Source of the DNA: Candidatus Poribacteria bacterium
Lineage (GTDB): Bacteria > Poribacteria > WGA-4E > PCPOR2b
Assembly (NCBI GenBank): GCA_965208325.1
Contig: OZ242326.1
Span: 2,847,363 to 2,911,362 of the forward strand
DNA: 64,000 nucleotides
Reading direction: 5' to 3'
How positions within the stretch are numbered: the stretch's first letter is position 1; every line of letters starts with the position of its first letter. Below the pieces are notes generated by a model. That model had not been told where the DNA came from, made no database searches, and saw nothing but the letters and a program-made list of their open reading frames with translations. Of this stretch, positions 46,533 to 63,080 are shown piece after piece. Both the position numbers and the translations under genes were made by a program.

Positions 46533-46756
46533 CGGTGATAGCGCCTAGTGCGTCCGTCTTGGGAATAATTTGCTAGGGTCGCATATCCAATACTGCCGAA
46601 AAGCAACGTGTCTGCTCATTATCCAATTTGTTGTAGTCATTTCGGTTCATATTTACACAGAGAGGAAACGACTGATTGATAATCGAGGTTAGGAATCCTC
46701 TCCCACAAACCAATAATAAAAGCATAATTTTTAGTCGTAATGACTGTAAATTCAAA

Positions 46757-46894
46757 GTGAGCAATGCGTAAAATCTAATGCGTAATGCGTAATGAGTAAT
46801 GCGTAATGCGTAATGAGTAATGAGTAATGAGTAATGAGTAATGCGTAAAATGTAATACGTAAAATGTAATGCATAGAGGGTAATGCGGTAAGCG
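46757..46894. repeat. Heptanucleotide tandem repeat (GTAATGM)n, about 18 units
   Basis: gcaatgc gtaaaat ctaatgc gtaatgc gtaatga gtaatgc gtaatgc gtaatga gtaatga gtaatga gtaatga gtaatgc gtaaaat gtaatac gtaaaat gtaatgc ... ; shorter arrays of the same unit at 54364-54398, 56288-56323, 57185-57234, 60252-60284 and 61938-61970. Confidence 0.9.
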
Positions 46895-46923
46895 GCTCGA
46901 TTGCGTTAGAAAATGAATTTAGA

Positions 46924-46959
46924 AAGAAACCGTGTTTTGAAGAAAAAACTCGGTTTCTC
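46924..46959 (-). terminator. Intrinsic terminator hairpin immediately after the stop of the 46963-49716 gene
   Basis: On the minus strand, AGAAACCGAGTTTT-TTCTTC-AAAACACGGTTTCT followed by a T-rich tract; near-identical copies at 51611 and 57822. Confidence 0.7.
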
Positions 46960-46962
46960 TTG

Positions 46963-49716
46963 CTACTTCATAATCAGCATCTTCCGGCTGGCTGAAAAGT
47001 CCGGGGTATGCAATTTGTAGAAGTAAACACCAGAAGCAACCCGCTCACCCATGTTGTTACGCCCGTCCCAATACGCGGCGCGCGCCCGGCTATTATAAAA
47101 TCCCGCTGATTGAAAACCGATCGACAGCGTGCGAACCAAATTACCCGTTGTATCGTATATGGATATGGATACAGGACTGTCTTCCGTGAGTTGATATGGA
47201 ATCCACGTCTCCGGGTTGAACGGATTCGGGTAGTTCTGCAACAACTGAGTCTGCTTCGGTTGACCGATGGTATCCAGCCTGACAGACAATACTGCGTTTT
47301 CCAAGTGTTCAGGGGCCACTTTGAATCTCAGGGTTGGCGATTCAATATTTCCATCCAGACCAATGACGCGCACTTCAATCACGTCTCCGGCTTCGACAAC
47401 GCTCCGCCGCAACAAGTCTGCGGTCGCAGCGGCAAAGTAATCACCTTGCACCGGCGCGGTTATGATCTTGTTTGTTCTCAGGTTGAGGACGACAACTTGA
47501 TAGCCGTCAAATGACTGTACACCTTCCAAATGCCCACTCACAACGAACGCCCACGCGTTTTGAGCAACCCCCCTGTCCCCCCTTATCAAGGGGGTAATGG
47601 TGGGTGCCGCCGCGGCAGGCTCTGTTTGGCTAGTCCACGGCGCTCCGACGAAGGCGAAATTGCGGGTTTCCGGGACATTGACGATATAACCGCCGCCGCC
47701 TTCGATTGGAAAACCGTCGTTCGGCGCGCCCGGCGTCCACGCCACGAAACGCTGGTTCGGCGCATCGATCGTGATGACGGTTGTCGCTCCTGTCAGCCCG
47801 GCAAGCGACTTGGCGCTCATCGGGGTTGACGGCGCCAACGGCACGGAAATCATGTTCAATCCTTTCGGCAGCGTGACGTTGTAGGCGTTACTGAAATACT
47901 CACTCACTTCTTCGGCAACCGGTCTGGCGATAAACCCGTGTCGGCGTCCATCCGCCGAGTCATAGTGGCCGACGACAGAGCCGTCTTGATTGATATTCCA
48001 ACCCTCCGTGCCAACACTGCCGGGAACCTGCAATTCGTGCGGCTCCCCGAATCTGCCGACGTATGTGCGCGGGACATCACCCACTTGTTTGGCTCGACCA
48101 ACGATAATCCCTACATCGTTGATACCGTGCATAAAAATGTACTCGAAATCCGCGGCTGCTAAGATGTCGGCAAAACCAAATCTGCCATCCGGAGCACGCG
48201 CGTATGCCTGATATGTGCCGTCACTGTCCACATAGCTGCCCACAACGGCACCTGACGCACTCACAAAGTCGGCATAAGTTTCCACTGCTCCGGGGACTTC
48301 AACGATGGTTTCCCCGGAAAAGCCTCGCCGCACGCCGGCAGCGTCGATAAAATTGCCCGTCAGTGCCCCGGTCGCATCGGAAATACCGTATATCTCCGTT
48401 TGGACCGCATCCGGAAAATCATATTGCCGCAGTTTGCCATTTTTCAAGACGACACCGTGGTAAAGCCCCTGGTTGTCCTCGTAATGTCCGGCGGCAGTCC
48501 CATCGTTACCGAGCGCATAGAAATAAGTGTTCTTGGAATCAGGAAAATCATGCCTCGTAAAAACGCCATCAATCAGCGTAAAGGCGACTATTTTTTCACC
48601 ATCGGCAGACCGCGTGTAGCCGGCGTAATCCTCAAAATCGCTGCTCGCCGTCAACGCTAAAAATTCAACACCGGGAACATCAATACTCTCAAAAGTATAA
48701 GTGTAGTTGAGGATGTCAGGCGGTACAACGGGCCGATCGCCGCCCGTTGCAGCAGTCCTAGCGATAAACCCGTGTCTGCGCCCATCCGCCGAGTCATAGT
48801 ATCCGACGACAGAACCATCCTGATTGATATTCCAGCCGTCTGTGATAACACTGTCCGGTACCCGCAATTCATGCAGCCCGCCGAATCTGCCGACGTATGT
48901 GCGCGGGATGTCACCCACCTGTTTGGCGCGAACCACTGCAACGCCTAAATCGTTGACGCCGTATGGATACAGATACTCCAAATTCGATACGTCGAGAGCG
49001 TCGGCAAATATAAACCTGCCATCAGGGGCACGCACGTATGCCTGATATACACCGTCACTGTCTACGTAACTGCCTACCACGGCGCCCGATGCGGTCGAAA
49101 AAAAGGCATGAGTTTCCGCTGCTCCGGGGACTTCAACGACGGTATCCCCGGAGAAACCGCGGCGAACACCGGCATCGTCGATAAAATTGCCGGTCAGCAC
49201 CCCGGTCGCGTCAGAAATACCGTATATCTCCGTTTGGACGGCATCCGAAAAATCGTATCGCCGAAGCTCGCCATTTTCCAAGACGACACCGTGATACAGA
49301 CCATCGCTATCTTGGTAGTGTCCCGCGGCTGTCCCGTCATTACCCAACGCATAGAAGTGAGTTTTCTGCGAGCCGGGGAAATCATGGCGCATAAAAACAT
49401 CGTCAATGAGCGTAAAGCCGACCTCTCTTTCGCCATCGTCACTTTTCGTATATCCGGCGTAATCCTCAAAGTCGCTGCTCGCTGTCAGCGCCAAAAAGCC
49501 CACACCCGGAACATCAATAGTTTCAAAAGTATAGTTGGCGCCGGCGGATGCGCCTCCGGATTCATTGTTCGTTTGTGCGGCGGAATCCCATGGGAAAAAG
49601 GATTTGAGGCACATATACAACGTAAATATGTAAAACAAAAAATTCGGTTTTGTCTGAGTAATCGACATTAAAAACTCCTTTGTTGTATTGACTAAAGACG
49701 GCGGTTGGGTGTTCAT
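46963..49716 (-). CDS. Secreted HAF-like extracellular-repeat protein with a T9SS C-terminal sorting domain (paralog A); the probable start is the internal Met MSITQTK
   Basis: Internally duplicated roughly 300-aa modules with a recurring G..N..G.VVG.Y.DS.G..HGF pattern (HAF-repeat-like); C-terminal NYPNPFNPETWIPYQL...YFYKLHT...MLIMK. Confidence 0.7.
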   Translation of the reverse strand: MNTQPPSLVNTTKEFLMSITQTKPNFLFYIFTLYMCLKSFFPWDSAAQTNNESGGASAGANYTFETIDVPGVGFLALTASSDFEDYAGYTKSDDGEREVGFTLIDDVFMRHDFPGSQKTHFYALGNDGTAAGHYQDSDGLYHGVVLENGELRRYDFSDAVQTEIYGISDATGVLTGNFIDDAGVRRGFSGDTVVEVPGAAETHAFFSTASGAVVGSYVDSDGVYQAYVRAPDGRFIFADALDVSNLEYLYPYGVNDLGVAVVRAKQVGDIPRTYVGRFGGLHELRVPDSVITDGWNINQDGSVVGYYDSADGRRHGFIARTAATGGDRPVVPPDILNYTYTFESIDVPGVEFLALTASSDFEDYAGYTRSADGEKIVAFTLIDGVFTRHDFPDSKNTYFYALGNDGTAAGHYEDNQGLYHGVVLKNGKLRQYDFPDAVQTEIYGISDATGALTGNFIDAAGVRRGFSGETIVEVPGAVETYADFVSASGAVVGSYVDSDGTYQAYARAPDGRFGFADILAAADFEYIFMHGINDVGIIVGRAKQVGDVPRTYVGRFGEPHELQVPGSVGTEGWNINQDGSVVGHYDSADGRRHGFIARPVAEEVSEYFSNAYNVTLPKGLNMISVPLAPSTPMSAKSLAGLTGATTVITIDAPNQRFVAWTPGAPNDGFPIEGGGGYIVNVPETRNFAFVGAPWTSQTEPAAAAPTITPLIRGDRGVAQNAWAFVVSGHLEGVQSFDGYQVVVLNLRTNKIITAPVQGDYFAAATADLLRRSVVEAGDVIEVRVIGLDGNIESPTLRFKVAPEHLENAVLSVRLDTIGQPKQTQLLQNYPNPFNPETWIPYQLTEDSPVSISIYDTTGNLVRTLSIGFQSAGFYNSRARAAYWDGRNNMGERVASGVYFYKLHTPDFSASRKMLIMK

Positions 49717-49929
49717 GTAAATTGTCTGAATCAGGATTTACAGGATTTAAGTTTATGTGGGTTGGGTTATGCGGTTTAGACAACGCTTTGAGCGACGCCG
49801 CTATTCGACGAGGTTGAGTTGATTTGATGCGTTAGCCTTTATTATCAGAAAGGCGGTGCCTTATATCTGGCTCAAAGCCAATGCAATTACACTGCATTAC
49901 CCCCAACCTAATTGTAAAGATATCTAATA

Positions 49930-50703
49930 TTAGATTTTTGATCGGTTATCATTTATGGGTTTCCATGTAAGTGAAACGGTGACGGTCAACCGGGTTACGT
50001 CGTCAAACTGCATGGCTTTTGTCCCGGCAATGTCTTGACCCCGAAAGGTTTCGGTCTTGCCGACAAAGTCGTCCGAAAAAGGAAATCCAACTCCGCCCGG
50101 TTCCGGGCAAGGCAATGAATCATCCTCAATAACGACAAGATATATCACCTTATCCTGCAGATCGTCGTATGTTAAATAACCGCCGTCGGACTTATTGAAA
50201 AAGGCGCCCACGGAGTAGAGCCTGTCCGACCCGTCTACATGTTCTAATCCGTTAATTTGACCGGAGCACGCAATAAAGTTATCTGCGCGGTCATAAATGT
50301 GAACCTCAATTTCAAGCCGACCGAATTCATACTCGTTCGTAACCGCAATTTCCGTGATGGTGACACGATCGGGCACACGTGAAACGAAAGGCCCGCCGGA
50401 ACCTAACGATTCTTCTAAGGGCGTAAACCTATTGTCAACGTCATCTCTGAACGTAAAAATCTGATCTTCAATCGCCATACGCGATTTGAAAATAGCGCCT
50501 TCAACGTCTCTCCGCAGGTCGGACTGTTCGCCACGCAACGTGGAAATTTCGTCTGCAAGATTGGGCCGCTCGTCTCTTAAAGAGTTTATTTCGGATTGGA
50601 AATCTTCGCGCAAAATATCAAGATCTTCTCGATCAACTTCAGCGCATCCAATCACAAGAAGAACTAAAATCATCACAATCGAATGCGTGTAACTTAGCTT
50701 CAT
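49930..50703 (-). CDS. Hypothetical lipoprotein with an N-terminal coiled-coil region
   Basis: The start is assigned to the internal Met giving the signal peptide MKLSYTHSIVMILVLLVIGCAEV (a lipobox); the upstream part of the ORF is probably not translated. Confidence 0.4.
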   Translation of the reverse strand: MKLSYTHSIVMILVLLVIGCAEVDREDLDILREDFQSEINSLRDERPNLADEISTLRGEQSDLRRDVEGAIFKSRMAIEDQIFTFRDDVDNRFTPLEESLGSGGPFVSRVPDRVTITEIAVTNEYEFGRLEIEVHIYDRADNFIACSGQINGLEHVDGSDRLYSVGAFFNKSDGGYLTYDDLQDKVIYLVVIEDDSLPCPEPGGVGFPFSDDFVGKTETFRGQDIAGTKAMQFDDVTRLTVTVSLTWKPINDNRSKI

Positions 50704-50905
50704 ATAGAACCCTCCATAGTTAGGACATGTTGGCATTTGAGTGAAAGGCTGATTTAATGCACCGACCGCTTCACAAACGCCAAGCATCCCCATCGTTCCT
50801 CCCATCCCCGACATTCTTCCTCAATTGGTTCCCTCATTACAAATTTGAAAGAGTCGGTAAATCCTTCAATTCCAATCGTTCAATGGCTTCAAGCCGGGTT
50901 GGGTT

Positions 50906-51412
50906 TTATTTCTTTTTGAAGACTATGGTACTACCATCATCGCTGTTCAGTGTGAGCGTATTCCCTTTTCTCGTCCAGGTGCCGGTGTCTTCGTCCGTAG
51001 GACCGACTGGTTCTACTTCTTCTTTAAATATACCGGTGCCTTCTACTGCTATAGGTGTAAGTGTATAATTGGAGTCAGATAGGGAGTAAGTGCCTGTCAT
51101 TTTCATTGAACCTTGCCCTGAAAGTTCCAAGCCTTCCTCTTCCACTTCAAACTTCACAGCGATTTCCGCTTCCACCGTTCCATTCTTATCAAACATCCAG
51201 TTATTGGCGACAATGGAAACATTTCCTCCTTCTTCGCCAAATTCTTCCACGAACAACCGGTCAAAACTCTGACCATCAATGGTTTCCCATGCCCAAGTTC
51301 CGACCCATTCATTATCATCCTCATCACTACCACAGCCGATGGATACAATAATCAGAACTACGTAAAGGCTAACTAACCACAAATACCAGCGGGGTATTAC
51401 GTGTTGAAACAT
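50906..51412 (-). CDS. Lipocalin-like lipoprotein
   Basis: Lipobox VSIGCGSDEDD, then NEWVGTWAWETIDGQSF (a GxW motif); similar to 19858-20442 and 25855-26400. Confidence 0.45.
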   Translation of the reverse strand: MFQHVIPRWYLWLVSLYVVLIIVSIGCGSDEDDNEWVGTWAWETIDGQSFDRLFVEEFGEEGGNVSIVANNWMFDKNGTVEAEIAVKFEVEEEGLELSGQGSMKMTGTYSLSDSNYTLTPIAVEGTGIFKEEVEPVGPTDEDTGTWTRKGNTLTLNSDDGSTIVFKKK

Positions 51413-51610
51413 CCTTTGAATCTCCCTTTTAGATTAAATGTTAGATTTTTGAACAAGTTTCGTAGGTTGGGCGTAGCGGTGTTGACGATAAACACTTCAA
51501 TGCGCCGCGTGCTTTACCTGGTTTGATTGCGTTAGAAAATGTGATTGATGGAGCGTAAACCAACCGACAAAAATCGAAGTTGAATCGGGAGGGGCTTCCG
51601 AAATTCAGAA

Positions 51611-51644
51611 AGAAACCGAGTTTTGAAGAAAAAACTCGGTTTCT
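51611..51644 (-). terminator. Intrinsic terminator hairpin after the 51649-54417 gene
   Basis: Perfect 14-bp stem AGAAACCGAGTTTT/AAAACTCGGTTTCT with a 6-nt loop, and a T-tract on the transcribed strand. Confidence 0.75.
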
Positions 51645-51648
51645 CTTG

Positions 51649-54417
51649 CTACTTCATAATCAGCATCTTCCGGCTAGCTGAAGAGATCGGGGTATGCAAT
51701 TTGTAAAAGTAAACACCAGAAGCAACCTGCTCACCCATGTTGTTACGGCCGTCCCAATACGCGGCACGCGCCCGGCTATGATAGAAACCTGCGGACTGAA
51801 AACCGACCGGCAGCGTGCGAACCAAATTACCCGTAGTATCGTATACGGATACCGTCACAGGACTATCTTCCGCGAGCTGATACGGTATCCACGTTTCCGG
51901 GTTAAACGGATTCGGGTAGTTCTGCAACAACTGCGTCAGTTTCGGTTTACCGATACCGTCAAGCCTGACGGACATTACGGCGTCTGCCAGGTGTTCAGTG
52001 GTCACTTTGAAACTTACGGCTTGAGATTCAACAACCCCGCCCGGTCCGATAACGTGCAACTCCACCACATCCCCGATCTCGACAACGCTCCGCCGCGACA
52101 GGTCCGCCGTTGCAACGGCGAAGTAATCGCCTTGCACCGGCGCAGCAATGGTGCTGTTTGTTCGCAAGTTACGGACGACAACGTGATAGCCGTCAAACGC
52201 GGGTTTAACTTCGTAGGTAGGGTTGGGTTCCCCAACCCTACCGCTTACAACGAACGCCCACGCGTTTTGAGCAACCCCCCTGTCCCCCCTTATCAAGGGG
52301 GTAATTGTGGGTGCCGCTGCGGTAGACTCTGTTTGATTTGTCCACGGCGCACCGACGAAGGCGAAATTGCGCGTTTCCGGGACATTGACGATATAACCGC
52401 CGCCGCCTTCGATTGAGAAGCCGTCGTTCGGCGCGCTTGGTGTCCAGGCGATGAAACGCTGGTTTGCCGCATCGATCGTAATAACGGTTGTCGCTCCTGT
52501 CAGCGCTGCGAGCGACTTGGCGCTCATGGTAGTTGGCGGCGCCAACGGCACGGAAATCATGTTCAATCCTTTCGCCAGCGTGACGCGGTAAGTGTTACCG
52601 AAATAATCACTCACTGCCTCGGCAACGGGTCTGGCGATAAACCCGTGCCTGCGTCCATCTACCGAGACGTAGTTTCCGACGACAGAGCCGTCCTGATTGA
52701 TATTCCACCCCTCCGTGCTGACGCTGCCCGGCACCTGTAATGCAGAGCGTCCACGCGCCGATCCGATATAGGTGCGTGGGACATCACCGATCCGTTTGGA
52801 GCGGGCAACGAAAATTCCTGCAGTGTTGATTGCATGGAAAAAATAGTATTCGAGGTTATCGGCATTTTCCAAGTCGATAGATGTAAATTGGCCGTGCGCA
52901 TGTATATATCCGTGATAAAGCCCCTGAGCGTCGACGTAACTCCCTACCAGCCGCCCGGCAGCCACAAAGTCCGCGAAGGTCTCCGAGGCGCCGGGGACTT
53001 CAATGACGGCATCGCCGGTGAATCCACGACGCACCCCTTGAGCGTCCGTGAAATTTCCTGTCAGCACACCTGTTTCATCAGAAATTCCGTATATCTCAGT
53101 TTCAACAGCACCGGGGAAATCGTATTGCGTAAGTACCCCGTTTTCCAAGATAACACCGTGAAATGACCCCTGGCTGTCTTGGTAATGTCCGGCGGCGCGG
53201 CCATCATTACCGAGTGCGTAGAAATAGGTGTTTTCCGCGTTCGGGAAATCGTACCTGGTAAAAACGCCGTCAATGAGCGTAAAGGCAACCATCTTTTGAC
53301 CGTGAGCACTCCTCGTGTAGCCGGCATAGTCCTCGAAGTCGCTGCTCGCAGTCAAATGTAGAAATTCTACCCCCGGCACATCAATACTCTCAAACGTATA
53401 GTCAGAGAAGGTCGGCTGCAGCGCAGGCGCCCCGGCGGGTCGGGCGATGAATCCGTATCTGCGTCCATCGGGTAGATTGTAGTATCCGACGACAGAGCCG
53501 TCCTGATTGATGTTCCAACCTTCCGTGCTCACGCTCTCCGGGAATTGTAATTCCACTCGCCCGCGGAATGTACTGACATGGGTGCGCGTGACATCACCGA
53601 CAAATTTGGAGCGGGTAACGTATACGCCCGCCTTGTTGATGCCGTGCACAAGAACGAATTCGATGTGTGCGGCGTTTGGGATGTCAACAGTCCGATACTC
53701 GCCATCCGGAGTAAGTACGTAAGTGTGATAGAGTCCGTCCATATCAATGTAACTGCCGACGAGCCGTCCTTCAGCCACAAAGTCGGCGAAGGTCTCTGCG
53801 GCACCGGGCACCTCAATGATGGTGTCCCCTGTGAACCCGCGCCGAACCCCATCAGCGGCGATAAAATTACCCGTCAGCGCACCTGTTTCATCAGAAATCC
53901 CGTATATCTCCGTTTCAACGGAGCCGGGGAAATCGTATTGCCGGAGTTCGCCATTTTCTAAGACGACACCGTGATATTGACCATCGCTATCTTCGTAGTG
54001 TCCCGCGGCTGTCCCGTCATTACCCAACGCATAGAAGTAGGTGTTCATTGAATCCGGGAAATCATGGCGCGTAAAAACGCCATCTATGAGCGTGAAGGCG
54101 ACCATTTTGCCGCCGTCCGTACTTTTCGTGTAGCCTGCATAGTCCTCGAATTCGCTGCTGGCGGTCAATGCTAAAAAGTCTACATCCGGAACTTCAATAC
54201 TCTCGAAGGTATAGTCGGCAGCGGTTTCAGTGTTGTCTTGTGCAGCCGTGTCTTTTAGGAACAAGGAATTGAGGCAAAAAAACAACGTAAACGCGTTAAA
54301 CAAGAAACTTTTTTTAATCTGAGTGGTTATCATGAAAAACTCCTTTTGCGTAAAACGTGATGGGTAATTCGTAATGAGTAAACGTAATGCGTAATGAGAA
54401 AAAGCAGATGCTGCCAA
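51649..54417 (-). CDS. Secreted HAF-like extracellular-repeat protein with a T9SS C-terminal sorting domain (paralog B); the probable start is the internal Met MITTQIKK
   Basis: Roughly 70 percent identical to 46963-49716 overall; 3' end and terminator about 90 percent identical at the nucleotide level. Confidence 0.7.
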   Translation of the reverse strand: MAASAFSHYALRLLITNYPSRFTQKEFFMITTQIKKSFLFNAFTLFFCLNSLFLKDTAAQDNTETAADYTFESIEVPDVDFLALTASSEFEDYAGYTKSTDGGKMVAFTLIDGVFTRHDFPDSMNTYFYALGNDGTAAGHYEDSDGQYHGVVLENGELRQYDFPGSVETEIYGISDETGALTGNFIAADGVRRGFTGDTIIEVPGAAETFADFVAEGRLVGSYIDMDGLYHTYVLTPDGEYRTVDIPNAAHIEFVLVHGINKAGVYVTRSKFVGDVTRTHVSTFRGRVELQFPESVSTEGWNINQDGSVVGYYNLPDGRRYGFIARPAGAPALQPTFSDYTFESIDVPGVEFLHLTASSDFEDYAGYTRSAHGQKMVAFTLIDGVFTRYDFPNAENTYFYALGNDGRAAGHYQDSQGSFHGVILENGVLTQYDFPGAVETEIYGISDETGVLTGNFTDAQGVRRGFTGDAVIEVPGASETFADFVAAGRLVGSYVDAQGLYHGYIHAHGQFTSIDLENADNLEYYFFHAINTAGIFVARSKRIGDVPRTYIGSARGRSALQVPGSVSTEGWNINQDGSVVGNYVSVDGRRHGFIARPVAEAVSDYFGNTYRVTLAKGLNMISVPLAPPTTMSAKSLAALTGATTVITIDAANQRFIAWTPSAPNDGFSIEGGGGYIVNVPETRNFAFVGAPWTNQTESTAAAPTITPLIRGDRGVAQNAWAFVVSGRVGEPNPTYEVKPAFDGYHVVVRNLRTNSTIAAPVQGDYFAVATADLSRRSVVEIGDVVELHVIGPGGVVESQAVSFKVTTEHLADAVMSVRLDGIGKPKLTQLLQNYPNPFNPETWIPYQLAEDSPVTVSVYDTTGNLVRTLPVGFQSAGFYHSRARAAYWDGRNNMGEQVASGVYFYKLHTPISSASRKMLIMK

Positions 54418-54440
54418 TTAGTGCTTTCATTTGATGCCCC

Positions 54441-54815: not shown

Positions 54816-54829
54816 TGTTTGCTTCCTAC

Positions 54830-55063: not shown

Positions 55064-55223
55064 AAAAACCTCCTCTTTTTGTGAAATGTCCGATAAGAGA
55101 CATATCGGACATTTTTTTCAGCGGAAAAATGGTGAGGGGGCGAGCCCTTTTTGGGCGAAAAAGCCCCGGTTAGTGTTTTGCCCGCGCCCAGCCCTTTAGA
55201 AGCGCGTATCTATCGACGAGTAT

Positions 55224-56165: not shown

Positions 56166-56327
56166 GTTATTGACGGCGCTAGATTGTAATTCTACTTGAC
56201 TTTAAATTACCAGTAACCGAATGTCTTCTCCCTATGTGTCAATACTCGATCGAGGGTAACGAGAGCATCAGTCCTAACCGGTGCGGCGTAATGAGTAATG
56301 CGTAATACGTATTGCGTAATGAGTCTT

Positions 56328-56599
56328 TGTAGGTTGGGTTGAGCGGTGTAGACAACAAGGATTTCAATCCGTCGCGTGCGTTACGCGGTTTGATTTCGTT
56401 CGAATACATGATTGACCGAGCGTAACGTAACGCTTTTCGTATAGTCATATCGGTTCATATTTACGCGAGGAGGAATCGACCGATTAATTATCAAGGCTAG
56501 GAAGCCTATCCTACAAACCAATAGTAAAGGAATATTTTTAGATATAAAGACTATCGCCATCGCTATTCGCTCAGTCGATCGCTCAACCCAACCTACAAA
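56328..56599. mobile_element. MITE-like repeat, a full copy with terminal inverted repeats TGTAGGTTGGGTTGAGCGG / CGCTCAACCCAACCTACA
   Basis: Roughly 270 bp, non-coding, with a perfect 17-bp TIR; the internal consensus (gcgccgcgtgcgttac..ggtttgattgcgtta...ggagcgtaac...tcggttcatatttac..gaggaatcgac.gat..ataatcgaggctaggaagcct.tcc.acaaaccaatag) is shared by other copies. Confidence 0.8.
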
Positions 56600-56640
56600 T
56601 ACTGTTCGCCGGCAGGAGTTAGTCGAAATAGTCGAAATCG

Positions 56641-56904: not shown

Positions 56905-56944
56905 GATTCCGCCTTTACTTTCTTCGCGTAAGGTTATCAGCTTT

Positions 56945-57142
56945 TGTAGGTTGGGGTAAGCGGTGTAGACAACAAAACATCGTAATGCCGCGTGGGTTAC
57001 ATGGTTTGATTGCGTTAAAAAATTTGATTGACGGAGCGTAACCCTACGGTTCTTGTAATAGCTATGTCGGTTGATATTTACACATTGGGGAAGCGACTGA
57101 TCGATAATCGAGGCTAGGAAGCCTGTCCCACAAACCAATAGG
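56945..57142. repeat. MITE-like repeat copy (left TIR plus core)
   Basis: Roughly 85 percent identical to 56328-56520. Confidence 0.8.
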
Positions 57143-57242
57143 CATCTGTAATGTTTTTTGTCGCAATGACCGTAAATTCAAAGTGAGTAATGAGTAAACG
57201 TAATGTGTAAAGCGTAATTAGTAATGCGTAATGAGCTTCTGC

Positions 57243-57328
57243 AGGTTGGGTTGAGTGGTGTAAACTACAAAAATCTCATAGTACCCGGTTTATTCGGTGT
57301 TATCCGCTTAACCCAACCTACAAAAACT
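57243..57328. repeat. Short (about 85 bp) MITE-like copy that retains both TIRs
   Basis: caggttgggttgagtgg ... cgcttaacccaacctacaaa. Confidence 0.7.
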
Positions 57329-57412
57329 GATTCTCTGAAGAAATAGCCCGCATTTCCGTGTCAAATTTCCAGCTGGATTTTCGCGGGTGTTTTTTTGCCC
57401 CCTCTAGCTCCC

Positions 57413-57647
57413 CCTTGTAAAGCTTACTATTACCCACATCTTAATGGAGGGTGCTAGAATCTGCGCACAACCCAACCTATAACCTCCCCTAACCCCGCCT
57501 TAGTAAGGAGGGGAATGATTATTGTAATGAGTCGACAAGGCGTTCTCACTGTAGGAGAGGCATCCCTGCCTCGACAATCGGCAGAAGGATTTCCCGCCCA
57601 CAGCGTGGCTCCGTGCGAATTTCTGGACTTGTGGGTAATAGTAAGCT
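57413..57647. mobile_element. A second, distinct 235-bp MITE-like element with perfect 16-bp TIRs (GCTTACTATTACCCAC / GTGGGTAATAGTAAGC), inserted inside another repeat
   Basis: The empty site is visible at 62184-62200 (cccccttgtaaa|ggggga); the filled site is cccccttgtaaa[g]-element-cttgtgaa|ggggga, implying a roughly 8-bp target duplication. Confidence 0.7.
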
Positions 57648-57821
57648 TGTGAAGGGGGAGAATTTTTTTTTGCCTCTTGTCGGTTCAGCGGTTCTGGAGG
57701 TGAAGACTTGAAGACTATCGACCTCCCTATTCGGTCGGTTGATCCTTCGCTATCCGCTCGGTTGATCCCAACCTAAAGAAATTCCAAGTTGAGTCGGGAG
57801 GAACCCCTCCCGAACTTCGGA

Positions 57822-57856
57822 AAGAGACCGAGTTTTGCAGAAAAAACTCGGTCTCT
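57822..57856 (-). terminator. Intrinsic terminator hairpin after the 57874-60162 gene
   Basis: Stem AGAGACCGAGTTTT/AAAACTCGGTCTCT with a loop GCAGAA (the third copy of this terminator type). Confidence 0.7.
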
Positions 57857-57873
57857 CTTGCCAATCTTGCAGT

Positions 57874-60162
57874 TTACTTGACGATTACCATCCGCCGTAA
57901 TGCGGTATACTCCCCCGCACGGAGTTGATAAAAATACAGACCACTCGCTACGTGCTCACCGAATTCGTTTGTACCATCCCAATACGCGGCTTTCGTCCTA
58001 TCCGTATAATTGCCCGCTGCTTGATGCCCTAAATCCAACCAGCGCACCAGCTCACCTTTGGAATCGTATATCGAAATTTGCACATCGGCGTGGTTCGACA
58101 GATGGTACGGTATCCACGTCTCAGGATTAAACGGATTCGGGAAATTCGGCAGCAGTTCAGCCGACTGCTGCGGCGCAGTGTCTCCACGTTCGATGACTTC
58201 GTCCGTGTCTTCCATATCCTCTAAATCGTCCAATGCCACACCCAAATCCCACAGGTGAATCACATTGTCGTAACCGCCGCTTGCAAGTATCCCGCCCCGG
58301 CTGACAGCTATACTCCGACCCCACTCGGTATGGCGTTCTAGCACGTGGAGCGGCGTGCCCGCTGCCGAGTCCCAAAGCCTGACGCTATTATCCTTACCCG
58401 TACTGGCAAGTATTTCACCATTCGGGTGGAATGCCGTGCTGAATACCCAGCCGGTATGCCCGGCAAGAACGCGGCTTGATTCTGTCTCGAGATTCCACAA
58501 CCGGACGCTGCCATCCGCGCCGGCACTGGCAAGCGTGTTGCCATCATCGAACGCGACGCTCAATACCTGTTCCTCATGTCCGGAGAATTCCTTTGTGATT
58601 TCACCGGTTTCAGGATTCCACAGCCGGACAATCGCATCGCCGCCGCTGCTGGCGAGCATGTCCCCGCTCGGATGGAAGGCGACGCTCCAGGCGCGAACCG
58701 AGTGCGCACGTATGCGATGCTTGCGCTCAACTCTACTCAAGTTGGAAATGTCCCAAATGGAAATATGCCCATACTCTGTCCCAGTTGCCAGGGTGTTCCC
58801 GTCCGGACTGAAGTCTATGCCCCAAACTGTACCGCCCGGTCTGATAATTCGTTTGATTCGCCCCGTATCAAGGTCCCACAACAACACTCTGGCATCCATG
58901 CCGCCGCTCGCCAATGTGTTGCCGTCCGGACTGAATGCAACCGAGCGCACCGAAAACCGATGACCTTCAAGCGTCCGTATGAGTTCCCGTGTTTCAACCT
59001 CCCACAACCGGACGGTTTTATCTTTGTGCGCACTGGCAAGGATTTCCCCGCTCGGACTGAAAGCGACGCCGTATACCCGCTGCGTCCCGGTATCGCCCGG
59101 ATTCGATGTAGCTTCAATTGTGTCAATGTATGTGGGTTCGGGAAATAACGGCGTTGCTGTAGCAGTAAACACAACCGTCTCATCTACTCCGGCGGCTGAC
59201 GCTTCCACGGCAAACTCGCCCGGACTATCACCAAGCGTGAGCCTGGCAGAGGCTTGCCCAGCGGCGTCTGTGGTGGACGTTGGATGGTTCAATGCGCCAA
59301 CCCCGGTGAGGACGGTAAAGGTGACGGTCGTGCCCGCTAGCGGGGCGTCGTACTGGTCGCTAACCTTTACGACAAACGGGTCTGCCAACACGCTGCCGAT
59401 GAGTCCCGTCTGGTTATCTCCGGAGATTTTCTCCAATCGCACCGCCTTCGGGCGTGAGGGGTCAACGGTTACGGTAAATTCTGTATAGATGTCGGGTGTA
59501 TCGCTTGGATAGGCTTTGACGATGTATTGTCCCGCTGCATCGGTGCCGAGGGTGAGCGTCGTCGTGGCGCGTCCATTTGCATCTGTCGTTGCCGTCACAG
59601 GATTCAACGATGCGCTGGATTCGTCTCCGGAGTCAATAGAAAAAGTCAAATCTACGTCCGGCATGGGGTTTCCGTCCGCATCCCGCAATTCGACAGTAAG
59701 TCTCTGGCTTTCCCCGGGGCTAGTGACATGATTGTCGTCCGAGACATTTACCAGTTTCGGCGATGGCGGAGTTGGACACGATGGCTTACCAGTTATTATA
59801 AAGTTAATATTAGAGGTGGGGCGGGGATCTCTAGTGAGCCGCACTGTGACTGTATATGTGCCGCAGGCATTCGCATTAAAGTGCAATTCAAACCATGCAC
59901 GGCCATCGTCATCAGTTGCGGATGGGGCAGACAGCGTCGCAGTCCCGTTGTTTGGACTGAGGCCCCACGTCAAGGCCCCTCCTATAGGGTTGCATGTGGG
60001 CGCGCAAAGCACCAGCCCGAATTCGTAGCGAACGCCCGGCCATCCGGGCTCAACTTGCAGGGTATGACTCTCACTGGCAACCGCACCTAACGGTACTGAG
60101 AGACAGATAAACAGTAGATAGATGAGACCAATTGTTTGCTTTTCGATAGGGGCGCTTGACAC
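57874..60162 (-). CDS. Secreted protein with bacterial Ig-like domains, a seven-bladed WD40 beta-propeller and a T9SS C-terminal sorting domain
   Basis: WD40 repeats (GH..V.SVAFSPDGNTLASGG.D..V.LWD); Ig-like N-terminal domains; C-terminal LLPNFPNPFNPETWIPYHL...YFYQLR...MVIVK. Confidence 0.8.
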   Translation of the reverse strand: MSSAPIEKQTIGLIYLLFICLSVPLGAVASESHTLQVEPGWPGVRYEFGLVLCAPTCNPIGGALTWGLSPNNGTATLSAPSATDDDGRAWFELHFNANACGTYTVTVRLTRDPRPTSNINFIITGKPSCPTPPSPKLVNVSDDNHVTSPGESQRLTVELRDADGNPMPDVDLTFSIDSGDESSASLNPVTATTDANGRATTTLTLGTDAAGQYIVKAYPSDTPDIYTEFTVTVDPSRPKAVRLEKISGDNQTGLIGSVLADPFVVKVSDQYDAPLAGTTVTFTVLTGVGALNHPTSTTDAAGQASARLTLGDSPGEFAVEASAAGVDETVVFTATATPLFPEPTYIDTIEATSNPGDTGTQRVYGVAFSPSGEILASAHKDKTVRLWEVETRELIRTLEGHRFSVRSVAFSPDGNTLASGGMDARVLLWDLDTGRIKRIIRPGGTVWGIDFSPDGNTLATGTEYGHISIWDISNLSRVERKHRIRAHSVRAWSVAFHPSGDMLASSGGDAIVRLWNPETGEITKEFSGHEEQVLSVAFDDGNTLASAGADGSVRLWNLETESSRVLAGHTGWVFSTAFHPNGEILASTGKDNSVRLWDSAAGTPLHVLERHTEWGRSIAVSRGGILASGGYDNVIHLWDLGVALDDLEDMEDTDEVIERGDTAPQQSAELLPNFPNPFNPETWIPYHLSNHADVQISIYDSKGELVRWLDLGHQAAGNYTDRTKAAYWDGTNEFGEHVASGLYFYQLRAGEYTALRRMVIVK

Positions 60163-60964
60163 TTGAGAGTCTCCGATTCAACACGATCCAATAACTACTG
60201 GCAGTGGATTGACAAACTGCATTGCCTTAGATTGGATATCTATAGTCATTTGTGAGTAATGCGTAAAACGTAAAGCGTAATGAGAAAAAGCGTTGGGTTA
60301 GGCTTTGCGATTCTTGCCAAGAGCGGCGTCATATTTTAGGAATGGTAGACTATGCTTTGTGCGCATTCGGCATTTTCCGCTTTACCCAACCTACAAAATC
60401 TCGTCATCAAAAATTCCTCCTTTCTTTATTCTAGCAGTCCGTTCTTGATTGCATCAGGAAGTGCAATTTAATCAATCTGAGCCGCCTTTTTAATATACGA
60501 CCAGGCTGATTTACTGATTTAGGCGACGGGCTTTTGCTGGCGGAAAGGATGGGGTGCTGTAAACCCCAAAAAGCGCCAGCTGCCCGTCATTTAGACCTTA
60601 GGATTGTTTTTGATCGCACCGGGGAGTGCAATAGTCGCATTGTGGGCGAATTGTGGATAACTTTGCACGCTCTCGGTTATTTCACGTGTTCACTTTTTGA
60701 CCTCCTGAAACGCCTCTTGAACGCCGAACGGCACGCATTGATTCCAATTGAAACACCAGCACATCAAACGGCCGAACAGTTCCTCGTTCTCTAATATTTC
60801 GCCGGATTCGATTGCGCGAACAACTTCCTGCGCTTGACCCATTGGAACGCTATCAGAATTCGACATTACTCACTCCGTGTGTTCTTGGTTAGGCTATGTA
60901 ATTTCAAAGAGTTCTACAGGCGCAACGCGGACGGCGGCGGCAAGTTGGCGCGTGCGCGGTGATG

Positions 60965-61936
60965 CTACCATTCAACCGGTTCCGTGAGGGAAGCGTTTCC
61001 ATCTTTTAACTCATTCCTGGCTCTAAACCGCCCGTATCTAGCGTACTTAAAACCCGGTCTCAGACGTATCGCCTCATCGAAGTCTTGAATCGCGGCGGCG
61101 TATTGTTCCAGTTCATATTTCGCCCTACCCCGATAACAATACGCGTCGGCATAATCCGGTGTCATGCGAATCGCCTCGGTATAGTCGTGAACGCTAGCCG
61201 CATAATGTCCTATCTCATACTTCGCCCTACCACGCCAGTAGTAGGCGTCAACATAATCCCGTTCCAAGCGTATCACTTCGTCGTAGTCGTGAACACAAGC
61301 AGCATATTGTCCTAACTTAAACTTTGCCGTACCTCGCCAGTAATAATAAGCAGCAACATTATCTTCATGCCTAATCGCAGCGTCGAAGTCCGCCAGCGAT
61401 GCGGAATATTGTCTTAGCTTATACTTTGCCCTGCCGCGCCAATAATGGCAGTCATCTAAATGACTAAGACTGAGTCGTATAGCGGCGTCAAAGTCTGGAA
61501 TCGATGCGGCGTATTGTCTAAAGGCGTATTTCGCTACGCCGCAGGCGTAGTAAGCGTCCGCAAATTTTGGATTAAATAGAATCGCAGCATCGAATTCCGC
61601 AATCGCATCAGCGTATTGCTCGAGTTCATACATTTGCGCACCATGCTCAAAATAACGAATGGCATGGGATTCTCTATGCAGTTGGTGCGTCCGAGTTCTT
61701 GACGGACGGTCTCTTTCCGGTCGCGGACTTTCCTCCTTTGCGGGTTTGCCTTTCACAAGTTGATTGGTAATTACTTCGTATGCGTTTTGGACAAGTATAA
61801 AGCGAAGTTTTGCACCGGAGGACGGATCCTTGTCCGGGTGCATGACTTTCACGCGGTCACGATAGGCTTTCTTGGCATCGTCTAGTGTCGCATTGGATAC
61901 CAGCCCCAAAATGCGAAATGCTTCCTTTCGTGTCAT
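60965..61936 (-). CDS. DnaJ (J-domain) protein with TPR repeats
   Basis: N-terminal J domain with an HPD motif (KKAYRDRVKVMHPDK); then at least seven TPR-like repeats (AYYWRGRAKY.LGQYAA...DFDEAIRL). Confidence 0.8.
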   Translation of the reverse strand: MTRKEAFRILGLVSNATLDDAKKAYRDRVKVMHPDKDPSSGAKLRFILVQNAYEVITNQLVKGKPAKEESPRPERDRPSRTRTHQLHRESHAIRYFEHGAQMYELEQYADAIAEFDAAILFNPKFADAYYACGVAKYAFRQYAASIPDFDAAIRLSLSHLDDCHYWRGRAKYKLRQYSASLADFDAAIRHEDNVAAYYYWRGTAKFKLGQYAACVHDYDEVIRLERDYVDAYYWRGRAKYEIGHYAASVHDYTEAIRMTPDYADAYCYRGRAKYELEQYAAAIQDFDEAIRLRPGFKYARYGRFRARNELKDGNASLTEPVEW

Positions 61937-61974
61937 AGTGAGTAATGAGTAAAACGTAATGCTTAATGAGTTTT

Positions 61975-62318
61975 TGTAGGTTGGTTTGAACGGAGTAGAC
62001 TATAAGAATATAAATGCGTCGCGTGTTTTATGCGGTTCGATTGCGTTAGAAAATTTGAATAATGGAGCGTGACTCAAAGCATTTAGTTATGGTCATTTCG
62101 GCTCATACTTGAATACGGAGGAATTGACTAATTTATAATCGAGGCTAGGAAGCCTCTCCCACTGTAATTACCCCCTCTAGCTCCCCCTTGTAAAGGGGGA
62201 GAATTTTTTTGTCTCTTTTTGATACAGCGGTTCTTGAGGGGAAGGTTCGAAGACTCGAAGGCTTAGGGACTATCGTCTTCGCTGTCCGTTCAGTTGATGC
62301 CAACCTACAAAAACGGTT
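61975..62318. repeat. MITE-like repeat copy plus an associated right-end module (ccccctctagctcccccttgtaaaggggga...ccaacctacaaaa)
   Basis: Left TIR tgtaggttggtttgaacgg; core about 80 percent identical to other copies; the right end resembles the 57661-57778 module. Confidence 0.7.
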
Positions 62319-62355
62319 AACCCTCCGAGTCCATAGCCTGATTGCATTGATAAGC

Positions 62356-62559
62356 CTACGCGGCTAGTACCGCGAAAACCAAAAACGAGTAAGCAACTAA
62401 TACAACACAGCATAGTAACTTCATTGGTGATTTCCTTATCTCTTGTTTAACTCGTGAATTCGGACGAATCAGTGCAGTCGGCGAATTATGAACAGGAATT
62501 AGGTAAATTCCACCGAATGCGGTGGCTAATATGAGTGCGAGATATATCCATTCAAGCAT
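62356..62559 (-). CDS. Hypothetical small membrane protein
   Basis: Two hydrophobic helices; ORF only. Confidence 0.25.
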   Translation of the reverse strand: MLEWIYLALILATAFGGIYLIPVHNSPTALIRPNSRVKQEIRKSPMKLLCCVVLVAYSFLVFAVLAA

Positions 62560-62598
62560 TTTTCAATCCGATCTGAGTAGCGACAGCGAGTGCAGTTT

Positions 62599-62699
62599 TT
62601 GTAGGTTTAGATCAGCGGTGTAGACAATGCGCCGCGTGCGTTACATGGTTTGACTGCGTTAGGAAATAAGATTAATGGAGTGTAACCAACCTACAAAAT
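62599..62699. repeat. Short MITE-like copy with both TIRs
   Basis: tgtaggtttagatcagcggtgtagacaatgcgccgcgtgcgttacatggtttgactgcgttagg...gtaaccaacctacaaaa. Confidence 0.7.
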
Positions 62700-63080
62700 T
62701 TGAAAAAGACTATCGCTAATCGCTCAGTTGATCCTAACCTACAACAGCCTACCTACCTTTCAGTTGGCGTTTCATCGCAAAATAGGCCGTTACCCCTAAG
62801 TGTCAAGCGGGAGGCAGACACGCACTTACTGGAGGAAAGGCTTGGGATTCCAAAAGACCCCAGCCTATTCTTTTTAACGTGTCTGCCATAAGGTTAATTT
62901 CTATTTTGGATTTTGTAGGTATATCAAGGGTGACGGGGCGGGAGATGCGCTAACACGCAGAATTTCGTCAACACTGGCGCCCCCGCTTCCCGTCATAAGA
63001 TGAATCATTCAGCGCCGCTGATTACTATTCACGTCGGAGTATTCACCCTAACGCACTAATCGCTGGCGGCAAAAGCCGTT

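What the first reader, a model, noticed from the sequence alone, without database searches (positions are those of the whole stretch)
46560..62760. Dense family of MITE-like repeats (TIR TGTAGGTTGGGTTGAGCGG) punctuating the T9SS cargo gene cluster
There are at least 15 copies or fragments of a non-coding element, ranging from about 85-bp TIR-only forms to about 270-bp full forms, with a perfect 17-19 bp terminal inverted repeat. They lie between nearly every gene of the 46-63 kb region, and further copies sit in the 29.7-32.8 kb non-coding tract. Full copies share a conserved core (gcgccgcgtgcgttacatggtttgattgcgttagaaaat..gattgatggagcgtaacc...tcggttcatatttacac..gaggaatcgactgat.gataatcgaggctaggaagcct.tcccacaaaccaatag). 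This density in an accessory region suggests an active non-autonomous transposon family that may shape expression and recombination of the surrounding secreted-protein genes, analogous to Correia elements in Neisseria.
Basis: seen in the sequence. Interest (0 to 1): 0.7.

Follow-up and report, generated by a model that had tools for sequence, protein, structure and literature searches.

The report
REP/REPIN palindromic repeats in Poribacteria
The dense repeats are real, but they are REP/REPIN elements, the small palindromic repeats served by a single-copy tyrosine transposase (RAYT), not classical MITEs; here they take an unusual long-loop form typical of the sponge-symbiont phylum Poribacteria.

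Summary
The 19-mer TGTAGGTTGGGTTGAGCGG occurs 17 times (up to 3 mismatches) against 0.01 expected, in two clusters, 29.8-32.8 kb and 46.6-62.8 kb.

The "TIR" is the head of a GTAG-tagged REP: GTAG, then the stem arm GTTGGGTT, then GAGCGG, a loop, AGCGA, and the other arm AACCCAAC. The same motif occurs in Poribacteria, Cyanobacteria, Chloroflexota, Desulfobacterota and Beta/Gammaproteobacteria.

In seven genomes, four of them Poribacteria, it directly flanks a REP-associated tyrosine transposase gene. That gene scores about 200 bits against NCBIfam NF047646 and matches PDB 4ER8 at E=4e-40.

The elements have no target-site duplications. Inverted doublets fold as long hairpins, and tandem, mosaic, BIME-like arrays occur.

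The family is genome-wide. Against a ~96%-identical relative every copy sits at the same place, so I found no sign of recent transposition. A more distant ortholog carries different REP content at one shared site.

Two features are unusual. In Poribacteria the loop is about 71 nt, variable in sequence but fixed in length (unit 102±2 nt). In this locus the REPs are also coupled to heptamer microsatellites that differ in copy number between strains.

Verdict: known kind, new variant, moderate interest.

The parts
29731..30759 (+). Tandem array of 3.2 x 321 bp. Each unit holds one long-loop REP (29803-29904, 30123-30224, 30444-30545; 102 nt each) plus palindromes of a second GTAG/GTGG-headed class (ctGTAGGAGCGATCTCCGAATCGCGGC, GTGGAAGCGGATTCCAGCCGCGAT).
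   Evidence: TRF, 96% matches; head/tail scan; sequence
30790..31023 (.). REPIN doublet. REP(+) 30791-30898 has a degenerate tail; a spacer follows; REP(-) is 30920-31023. The outer 18-22 bp pair.
   Evidence: ssDNA fold -31.6 kcal/mol, z -3.45
31393..31495 (+). Single long-loop REP (103 nt). Its loop subfamily is shared with L032 and L074 (OZ242351.1).
   Evidence: closing stem predicted, z -2.4
32416..32505 (+). REP unit of 90 nt with the tail AGCGTAAACCAAC.
32676..32777 (+). Long-loop REP of 102 nt, subfamily A (loop ...GCCGCG..GTTTTGATTGTGTTCAAAAT..).
   Evidence: z -2.3
46627..46915 (+). Orphan module B (46627-46745), linker, heptamer array (46776-46887; 16 x TAATGCG/TAATGAG), and an internally deleted REP-A remnant (46873-46915).
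   Evidence: The array is 35 bp longer than in L115.
49756..49912 (.). Degenerate inverted pair of heads (TGTGGGTTGGGTTATGCGG ... CCCCAACCTAA).
51462..51564 (+). Long-loop REP of 103 nt, subfamily A, a singlet lying between the terminator hairpin of the 922-aa gene and the next gene.
   Evidence: In L115 this copy is fused at a GATTGAT microhomology to module B plus a heptamer array.
54340..54402 (+). Heptamer array immediately 5' of the ATG (54333) of the 922-aa secreted-protein gene, which lies on the minus strand.
56286..56598 (+). Heptamer array (56286-56324) plus the full composite: REP-A 56329-56431, module B 56435-56540, and module C 56545-56598, which ends in an inverted head.
   Evidence: fold -48 kcal/mol, z -5.1. 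The array is 28 bp longer than in L115. Ortholog L124 carries different REP content here.
56943..57235 (+). REP-A 56946-57047, module B 57052-57156, linker, and heptamer array 57187-57235.
   Evidence: Conserved at this site in L115 and L124.
57238..57325 (.).
   Evidence: 16-bp stem, z -3.3
57463..57781 (-). Orphan head (57463-57481) and module D plus module C (57646-57781) ending in a degenerate head.
60253..60394 (-). Heptamer array (60253-60290) abutting a minus-oriented long-loop REP (60292-60394; 103 nt).
   Evidence: L115 has one extra heptamer here.
61937..62310 (+). Heptamer array (61937-61970) abutting the ATG of the DnaJ-TPR gene, then REP-A 61976-62078 (degenerate tail), module B 62083-62187, and modules D and C with an inverted head at 62298-62308.
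62597..62745 (+). Shortened REP-A (62600-62694) whose tail has become a full inverted head, followed by module C (62700-62745).

Best explanation
The repeats are REPs (repetitive extragenic palindromes) of the GTAG-tagged super-family. They occur as singlets, as inverted doublets (REPINs) and as mosaic or tandem arrays like the BIMEs of E. coli.

The unit is 5'-GTAG-GTTGGGT(T/A)-GAGCGG-[loop]-AGCG(A/T)A-ACCCAAC-3'.

These elements are non-autonomous. Their cognate enzyme is a single-domain HUH/Y1 REP-associated tyrosine transposase (RAYT) encoded elsewhere in the genome.

The following steps are inferred from the E. coli TnpA-REP and IS200/IS605 paradigm. The RAYT binds the hairpin and the GTAG tetranucleotide on single-stranded DNA. 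It cuts and rejoins without making target-site duplications. Copies therefore accumulate slowly in intergenic DNA and are inherited with their flanks.

Once in place, copies change mainly by homologous and microhomology recombination between modules and by tandem amplification. In this lineage heptamer microsatellites have also grown next to them. Any effect on the neighbouring secreted-protein genes, such as termination, mRNA stability or promoter spacing, is plausible but not shown.
For: (1) Anatomy. Head and tail are conserved in 218 units from 115 sources. Minimal 29-37-nt hairpins occur outside Poribacteria, for example GTAGGTTGGGTTGAGCGGAGCGAAACCCAAC. Compensatory stem variants exist: GTCGGGT/ACCCGAC, GGTGGGT/ACCCACC, GGATGGGT/ACCCATC.

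(2) RAYT linkage. tblastn found RAYT genes in two Poribacteria loci that had been fetched only because they contain the motif. They score 199-202 bits against NCBIfam NF047646 REP_Tyr_transpos (cut-off 80), and also hit Pfam Y1_Tnp. They match PDB 4ER8 TnpArep at E=3.9e-40, with the HUH motif and the catalytic Tyr aligned. These genes are directly flanked by the motif in L105 (a REPIN array on the right, copies on the left), L009, L119/L120 and L121/L122, Calothrix L110, Desulfobacterales L111 and Anaerolineae L112.

(3) RAYTs of these phyla are 60-65% identical to the Poribacterial one. This parallels the conservation of the REP sequence.

(4) No TSDs around 82 inverted pairs.

(5) Doublets fold as long ssDNA hairpins, z -3.5 to -5.1.

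(6) The family is genome-wide. More than 109 loci were returned in a capped scan. Loci fetched independently of the motif hold 2.4-4.8 heads per 10 kb.

(7) The tandem array and mosaic modules match the higher-order REP/REPIN clusters described in PMC3116915. GTAG-tagged REPs in Cyanobacteria and Chloroflexi are described in PMC3733652.
Against: No RAYT lies in the 64-kb window, and I could not search the rest of this genome, so the cognate enzyme for these particular copies is inferred from relatives.

The Poribacterial unit is 102 nt with a ~71-nt loop, far outside the 20-40 bp usual for REPs. Single units fold only marginally: z from +1.0 to -2.4, with the closing stem in the MFE structure of 5 of 9.

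In cluster 2 most right-hand partners are module C, a head without the complementary tail, so several 'full copies' are not textbook REPINs.

No transposition event was caught. There is no insertion polymorphism against L115.

The RAYT query that first found the link was an E. coli sequence recalled from memory. The link was afterwards confirmed with curated HMMs and the PDB.
Confidence: 0.85

Rival explanations
1. A classical TIR-type MITE, analogous to Correia/NEMIS elements, mobilised in trans by a DDE transposase that recognises the 19-bp inverted repeats and makes target-site duplications.
For: The elements have 18-20-bp terminal inverted repeats, are 88-273 bp long, non-coding and intergenic.
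Against: There are no TSDs at any offset around 82 inverted pairs. Many copies are singlets with only one 'TIR'. Minimal 29-37-nt forms cannot be MITEs. No transposase family other than the RAYT recurs next to the motif in 109 loci. The DDE genes seen in L112, L117 and L118 are not bounded by the motif.
Confidence: 0.05
2. Purely local segmental duplications that accompanied amplification of the paralogous secreted-protein genes, with no mobility at all.
For: The 917-aa and 922-aa genes and their 3' flanks are paralogous at 90% (D8 and D9). Modules A and B recur next to them. Copies are positionally stable against L115.
Against: The same unit is found at many unrelated loci of at least 20 Poribacteria genomes and in other phyla. 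A second cluster at 29.8-32.8 kb has no paralogous genes. Copies flank unrelated genes such as TonB, DnaJ-TPR and WD40.
Confidence: 0.03
3. Primarily host cis-acting elements, for example transcription terminators or attenuators, mRNA-stabilising hairpins, or binding arrays for a nucleoid or regulatory protein. On this view selection for that role, not transposition, explains their spread and the fixed 102-nt length.
For: The unit length is fixed despite sequence drift. Positions are stable between strains. Placement relative to gene ends and to the heptamer arrays is constant. E. coli REP/BIMEs are known to bind gyrase, IHF and Pol I and to stabilise mRNA; this last point is from my own knowledge and from the background section of PMC3733652.
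Against: There is no Rfam match even at E<=1. Promoter-like and terminator-like sites are not enriched (18 vs 19.1 and 19 vs 19.6 expected). Single units fold weakly. This view does not explain the tight RAYT linkage. It is compatible with the best explanation as a secondary role.
Confidence: 0.07

Closest known systems
REP / REPIN-RAYT systems (E. coli REP-BIME with TnpA-REP/RayT, PDB 4ER8; Pseudomonas REPINs; Nostoc punctiforme REPINs, PMC3116915)
   Same: Both have a GTAG head followed by a stem. Both are extragenic, occur as singlets, inverted doublets and ordered tandem clusters, and lack TSDs. In both, the REPs flank a single-domain HUH/Y1 RAYT gene. The Poribacterial RAYT aligns to 4ER8 at E=3.9e-40 with its catalytic motifs conserved.
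   Different: In Poribacteria the hairpin loop is about 71 nt (unit 99-105 nt, mode 102), compared with 2-27 nt in described families. The loop varies in sequence but not in length. In this window the right arm of many composites is a head-only module (C), and extra modules (B, D) and heptamer microsatellites are attached.
GTAG-tagged REP families of Di Nocera et al. 2013 (PMC3733652), in particular the cyanobacterial GTAG-15 family with 9-15-nt non-complementary loops
   Same: Both have a GTAG tag, a 7-8-bp stem and an unpaired loop of 9-11 nt in the minimal form (GAGCGGAGCGA, GAGGAACGA). Both are present in Anabaena, Nostoc and Calothrix and in distant phyla, and both form dimers 20-100 bp apart.
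   Different: I could not verify identity with GTAG-15 because the consensus figure is not held and the supplements contain no such sequence. Poribacteria and the long-loop form are not mentioned in that paper.
Correia/NEMIS elements of Neisseria and other bacterial TIR-MITEs
   Same: Both are small, abundant, intergenic repeats with inverted ends that can sit between genes and fold into hairpins in transcripts.
   Different: From my own knowledge, Correia elements have 26-bp TIRs, a TA target duplication and an IHF site. Here there is no TSD, there are singlet and 30-nt forms, and the associated enzyme is a Y1 transposase.
IS200/IS605 family and its palindrome-associated derivatives (PATEs)
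   Same: Both use HUH/Y1 chemistry, recognise hairpins on single-stranded DNA and make no TSD.
   Different: The associated protein scores 27 bits on the IS200 equivalog (cut-off 55) but about 200 bits on the RAYT equivalog. No TnpB is present. The gene is flanked by REP arrays rather than by distinct left-end and right-end hairpins.

Membership tests
REP / REPIN-RAYT | Conserved 5' GT[AG]G tetranucleotide next to the palindrome | tested here: met
   Every head begins with GTAG, with rare GTGG or GCAG variants, in the window and in all 218 extracted units.
REP / REPIN-RAYT | Short imperfect palindrome (stem-loop) with compensatory stem changes | tested here: inconclusive
   The 7-8-bp stem GTTGGGTT/AACCCAAC is always present, and a few compensatory variants exist. 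However, the loop is about 71 nt in this window, and single units fold only marginally (z from +1 to -2.4).
REP / REPIN-RAYT | The repeats flank a RAYT gene (HUH + Tyr, single domain) | tested here: met
   Met in 7 related or unrelated genomes: L105, L009, L119/120, L121/122, L110, L111, L112. It could not be tested for the window's own genome; there is no RAYT in the 64 kb.
REP / REPIN-RAYT | Extragenic, high copy number, dispersed over the genome | tested here: met
   All units in the window lie outside the long ORFs. More than 109 loci came back in a capped scan. Motif-independent loci L116 and L117 hold 2.4-4.8 heads per 10 kb, and L118 holds none.
REP / REPIN-RAYT | Inverted doublets that fold as one hairpin (REPIN), and ordered tandem clusters | tested here: met
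   Doublets at 30790-31023 and 56326-56598, and in L009, have z -3.5 to -5.1. Tandem arrays occur at 29731-30759 and L105 3430-5950.
REP / REPIN-RAYT | No target-site duplication | tested here: met
   Among 82 inverted pairs, 71-79 have no flanking direct repeat of 2 nt or more at offsets 0-3.
REP / REPIN-RAYT | [quoted passage not shown] | not testable with these tools
TIR-MITE (Correia-like) | Target-site duplication flanking the inverted repeats | tested here: not met
TIR-MITE (Correia-like) | Parent IS with a DDE transposase and the same terminal inverted repeats | tested here: not met
   No such gene family recurs near the motif in 109 loci. Only the RAYT is linked. Whole genomes were not searched.
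Integron attC / CALIN | Order R'' (RYYYAAC) ... R' (GTTRRRY) within a site, and an IntI integrase | tested here: not met
   The order here is GTTGGGT ... ACCCAAC on both strands, the inverse of an attC site (direct reading). No integrase was seen among neighbouring ORF families.
IS200/IS605 (autonomous or PATE) | TnpA of the IS200 equivalog, distinct left-end and right-end hairpins, often tnpB | tested here: not met
   The IS200 equivalog scores 27 bits against a cut-off of 55, while the RAYT equivalog scores about 200 bits. No tnpB lies next to the RAYT genes.

The most novel reading that the evidence does not exclude
Poribacterial 'long-loop REPs' may be a distinct class of RAYT-associated element. 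In them the two halves of the recognised hairpin are separated by a ~71-nt segment whose sequence drifts freely but whose length is held at 102±2 nt. Even the 46 loops with no detectable similarity to any other loop obey this. A parallel 64-67-nt class exists in Oceanospirillales, Chloroflexia and Desulfarculales. This would imply a molecular-ruler constraint that no described REP has, for example a symmetric bubble in the REPIN hairpin or wrapping around a protein. In this locus the elements are also coupled to hypervariable heptamer microsatellites just 5' of secreted-protein genes, which could give the symbiont phase-variable control of these genes.
Probability: 0.25. Interest if true: 0.6.

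Novelty: new variant of a known kind. Interest (0 to 1): 0.4.

Why it matters
REPIN-RAYT systems have been studied almost only in Enterobacteria and Pseudomonas. They are debated as long-lived, vertically inherited intragenomic replicators.

This result extends them to an uncultured, sponge-associated candidate phylum. I found no paper in the held library that links Poribacteria with REPs or RAYTs.

It also shows one REP sequence paired with one RAYT clade, at 60-65% protein identity, across at least five phyla.

Finally, it reveals a form with a long loop of fixed length. That form challenges the idea that the RAYT substrate is a compact 20-40-nt hairpin.

There are practical consequences too. 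These repeats and the adjacent heptamer arrays are likely break points for MAG assembly and hot spots of rearrangement in the eukaryote-like and secreted protein gene clusters of sponge symbionts.

Tried and rejected
Rfam at gathering threshold on the whole window found nothing. At E<=1 on 29.5-33.1 kb and 56.1-57.9 kb the only hit was a meaningless miRNA match at E=0.84.

There are no tRNA or tmRNA genes.

The integron attC idea (GTTRRRY/RYYYAAC) was rejected because the order of the core sites is inverted.

A full-text literature search for the motif returned only unrelated primers. The supplements of PMC3733652 do not contain the sequence.

Clustering ORFs from the 109 motif loci gave only ordinary genes: SDR, ABC, GFO oxidoreductases and WD40 proteins.

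The promoter/terminator consensus scan showed no enrichment.

A loose covariation scan (3 mismatches allowed) returned mostly noise and was replaced by a stricter one.

The exact product of the DnaJ-TPR gene is not on record.

The TonB homologs P0125, P0126 and P0130 turned out to be paralogs in non-syntenic contexts. They could not serve for empty-site comparison, but they did serve as motif-independent samples of density.

L032 is not syntenic with the window apart from one 463-bp non-coding block.

The CRISPR-like 'variable spacer' idea for the loops was rejected because loops within one tandem array are near-identical.

Full report
OBSERVATION. It has 17 matches with up to 3 mismatches, against a mean of 0.01 in shuffles. 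The hits form two clusters, 29.8-32.7 kb and 49.7-62.0 kb. Direct-repeat and BLAST mapping confirm a modular family:
- Module A is about 103 nt and starts with the 19-mer.
- Module B is about 105 nt (tcggttcatatttacac...ggctaggaagcct...cccacaaaccaatag).
- Module C is about 50 nt (gactatcgc...cgctcagtcgatCGCTCAACCCAACCTACA) and ends in the inverted 19-mer.
- Module D is a hairpin followed by a T-run.

The best 'full' copy is 56326-56598 (273 bp, 20-bp perfect inverted termini). The short form is 57238-57325 (88 bp). There is also a 3.2 x 321-bp tandem array at 29731-30759. All genes of the region lie on the minus strand. They include a PAS histidine kinase; two paralogous ~920-aa proteins with FlgD_ig domains and sub-threshold Por_Secre_tail hits; a TonB_C protein; a Big_1/WD40 protein; a DnaJ-TPR protein; and a periplasmic binding protein. 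The description of the locus is therefore fair.

WHAT THE 'TIR' IS. A capped scan of one genome per species found the exact 19-mer in more than 109 places. Most hits are in Candidatus Poribacteria. Others are in Cyanobacteria (Dapis, Calothrix, Symploca, Anabaena, Nostoc, Okeania), Chloroflexia/Anaerolineae, Desulfobacterota, Sulfuricella/Hydrogenophilales, Oleiphilus, Oceanospirillum, Pseudoalteromonas and Pseudomonas.

Reading the contexts shows a constant architecture: TGTAGGTTGGGT(T/A)GAGCGG, then 0 to ~110 nt, then AGCGAAACCCAAC. This is the tetranucleotide GTAG, an 8-nt arm GTTGGGTT, a loop, and the complementary arm AACCCAAC. Outside Poribacteria the whole unit is usually 29-37 nt, for example GTAGGTTGGGTTGAGCGGAGCGAAACCCAAC. 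It often forms inverted doublets.

A GTAG head next to a palindrome is the signature of REPs. It is the element that REP-associated tyrosine transposases recognise (PMC2817692, PMC3733652; structure 4ER8).

LINK TO A RAYT. I ran tblastn with the E. coli RayT/YafM sequence, recalled from memory and therefore only a lead, against all fetched DNA. It hit two Poribacteria loci that had been retrieved solely because they hold the motif: L105 and L009 (E about 1e-41).

Curated models confirm what these genes are. NCBIfam NF047646 'REP-associated tyrosine transposase' scores 201.6 and 199.2 bits (cut-off 80). The IS200 equivalog scores only 27 bits (cut-off 55). Pfam Y1_Tnp is also hit. PDB 4ER8 (TnpArep) matches at E=3.9e-40, with HUH (PDHLHTIW vs PEHMHCIW) and the tyrosine motif (YIHYNPVKHG vs YIYINPVKHG) aligned.

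Both genes are embedded in the repeats. In L105 there are copies on the left (2130-2480) and an array of about six doublets on the right (3430-5950). In L009 two doublets end 70 bp before the ATG. Two further Poribacterial RAYT loci, fetched through the protein, show the same picture: L119/L120 and L121/L122.

RAYTs 60-65% identical to the Poribacterial one occur in Cyanobacteria, Anaerolineae and Desulfobacterales. The three I examined are again flanked by the same REP: Calothrix L110, Desulfobacterales L111 and Anaerolineae L112.

In L121/L122 the RAYT is flanked by units whose stem carries a compensatory double change, GTCGGGT/ACCCGAC. No other protein family recurs near the motif.

OTHER DEFINING FEATURES. 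No target-site duplication is seen around 82 inverted pairs. Doublets fold as one long hairpin on single-stranded DNA: -31.6, -48.0 and -47.4 kcal/mol, with z of -3.45, -5.14 and -4.37. The family is dispersed. Loci fetched independently of the motif, through TonB paralogs, hold 5 heads in 20.9 kb, 8 heads in 16.7 kb and 0 heads in 20.9 kb. The MITE criteria of a TSD and an IS with matching inverted repeats are not met either.

COMPARISON BETWEEN STRAINS. ENA scaffold ERZ23495159:scaffold_63 (L115) is collinear with window 45084-63999 at 93.6-96.2% identity. Every REP copy is at the same position in both, so there is no insertion polymorphism over 18.9 kb. The differences are:
(i) Heptamer copy number. 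The window has +28 bp at 56297-56324, and +7 and +28 bp at 46793-46837. L115 has +7 bp at 60275.
(ii) One rearrangement. In L115 the REP at 51462 is joined, at a GATTGAT microhomology, to the 3' half of module B, a linker and a heptamer array.
(iii) A 224-bp segment at 46404-46627 that is unrelated to REPs.

A more distant ortholog is JGI contig L124, whose flanks are roughly 90-95% identical by my reading of the three-way alignment. It keeps REP-A plus module B upstream of the 87-aa gene. Upstream of TonB, however, it carries a single 104-nt REP of another loop subfamily, where the window and L115 have C + B + inverted A + heptamers. The left junction is identical, and divergence begins exactly after GAGCG, at the start of the loop. 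The sites are therefore old and stable on short time scales but turn over on longer ones, as described for REPIN populations (PMC3116915, PMC5581495).

THE UNUSUAL PART. I extracted 218 head-to-tail units and looked at their lengths. They cluster at 29-41 nt (64 units), 64-67 nt (13) and 99-105 nt (111, mode 102). In Poribacteria and the window, 99 of 133 units are 99-105 nt. The 20 longer ones merely include an extra upstream head. Outside Poribacteria, 59 of 77 are minimal.

The ~71-nt loops fall into several subfamilies plus 46 singletons. Median pairwise loop identity is 0.535, against 0.528 for shuffled loops. Even so, the singletons still give units of 95-104 nt.

Long-loop units flank the RAYT gene itself in L009, L105 and L119, so they are likely to be substrates rather than debris.

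In the OZ24xxxx genomes the two arms of a doublet belong to two different loop subfamilies that are consistently paired. From my own knowledge, this recalls the Y/Z asymmetry of E. coli BIMEs.

Described GTAG REPs have loops of 2-27 nt (PMC3733652). I found no description of this long form, nor of REP/RAYT in Poribacteria, in the held library. I could not check whether the minimal form equals the family 'GTAG-15', because the figure is not held and nothing is in the supplements.

MECHANISM, SHOWN VERSUS INFERRED. Shown: the repeat family, its GTAG-stem anatomy, its physical linkage to RAYT genes in seven genomes, conservation of the catalytic motifs, absence of TSDs, the hairpin potential of doublets, dispersion, and stability and turnover between strains. 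Inferred: that a RAYT of this genome mobilises these copies on single-stranded DNA, by analogy with TnpA-REP and IS200/IS605; that loop length is constrained by the enzyme or by the doublet structure; and that the elements influence neighbouring genes. Consensus promoter and terminator scans give no support for the last point.

VERDICT. The interpretation as a Correia-like MITE should be replaced by REP/REPIN-RAYT, with BIME-like mosaics. This is a known kind of element in a phylum where it had not been described, in a structurally unusual long-loop form. Interest is moderate.

Noticed in passing
window 46776-46887, 54340-54402, 56286-56324, 57187-57235, 60253-60290, 61937-61970: Heptanucleotide microsatellites (TAATGCG/TAATGAG on the + strand, CATTACG/CATTACT on the coding strand) sit directly next to REP heads and 0-200 nt 5' of minus-strand gene starts. 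The pattern gives 18 matches against 0.14 expected. They are absent from the other 114 loci. Copy number differs in multiples of 7 from the ~96%-identical relative L115. The TonB-upstream array is 39 bp in the window, 11 bp in L115 and absent in L124. They may be contingency (phase-variation) loci for secreted-protein genes.
   Followed up: partly
window 29731-30759 (each 321-bp unit), 57555-57590, 20511-20533: A second class of GTAG/GTGG-headed palindromes resembles Pseudomonas-type REPs: ctGTAGGAGCGATCTCCGAATCGCGGC, GTGGAAGCGGATTCCAGCCGCGAT, GTAGGAGAGGCATCCCTGCCTCGAC. The genome probably hosts more than one REP class, and perhaps more than one RAYT.
   Followed up: no
window 31033-31495; L032 6126-6585; L105 5950-6007: A 463-bp non-coding block is 87% identical to a non-syntenic place in Poribacteria OZ242351.1. 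Its segment aaaattacagtttttacagtccataaaaaaaggggg also follows the REPIN array next to the RAYT gene in L105. It may be another repeat or a small RNA gene. There is no Rfam hit.
   Followed up: partly
window 46916-46962, 51602-51648, 57815-57865: The same 14-bp-stem hairpin (gaaagaaaccgagttttgaagaaaaaactcggtttctct) lies just 3' of the stop codons of three secreted-protein genes (917 aa, 922 aa and 762 aa). It looks like a shared terminator carried along with the C-terminal sorting-domain end of the genes (D8 and D16).
   Followed up: no
window 46963-49716 and 51649-54417: The two ~920-aa paralogs each contain an internal duplication of about 834 bp (families D1, D3 and D5). They differ from their L115 orthologs by small indels. 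One is a 16-bp segment, AGGTAGGGTTGGGTTC, at 52215-52230 that resembles a REP head inside coding sequence.
   Followed up: no
window 46404-46627: A 224-bp segment is present in the window but absent from L115. It covers the 5' part of the 146-aa ORF 46092-46532, which has no Pfam hit and no called counterpart in L115, so that ORF may not be a real gene.
   Followed up: partly
window 57395-57422, 57646-57700, 62162-62215: Module D, ccccctctagctcccccttgtaaaggggga followed by a T-run, is a strong hairpin plus T-tract on the + strand, antisense to all local genes. It always lies next to module C.
   Followed up: no
L002, L017, L029, L051, L061, L094: An intermediate class of units of 64-67 nt has variable ~34-nt loops in Oleiphilus, Oceanospirillum, Chloroflexia, Desulfarculales and one Poribacterium. 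In the Oceanospirillales copies GCGG/CCGC extends the stem. The loop sizes look quantised: about 0-6 nt, about 34 nt and about 71 nt.
   Followed up: no
window 42255-43955 and 31500-32400: These are long stretches without ORFs of 80 aa or more and without REP heads. Nothing was found in Rfam at the gathering threshold.
   Followed up: no
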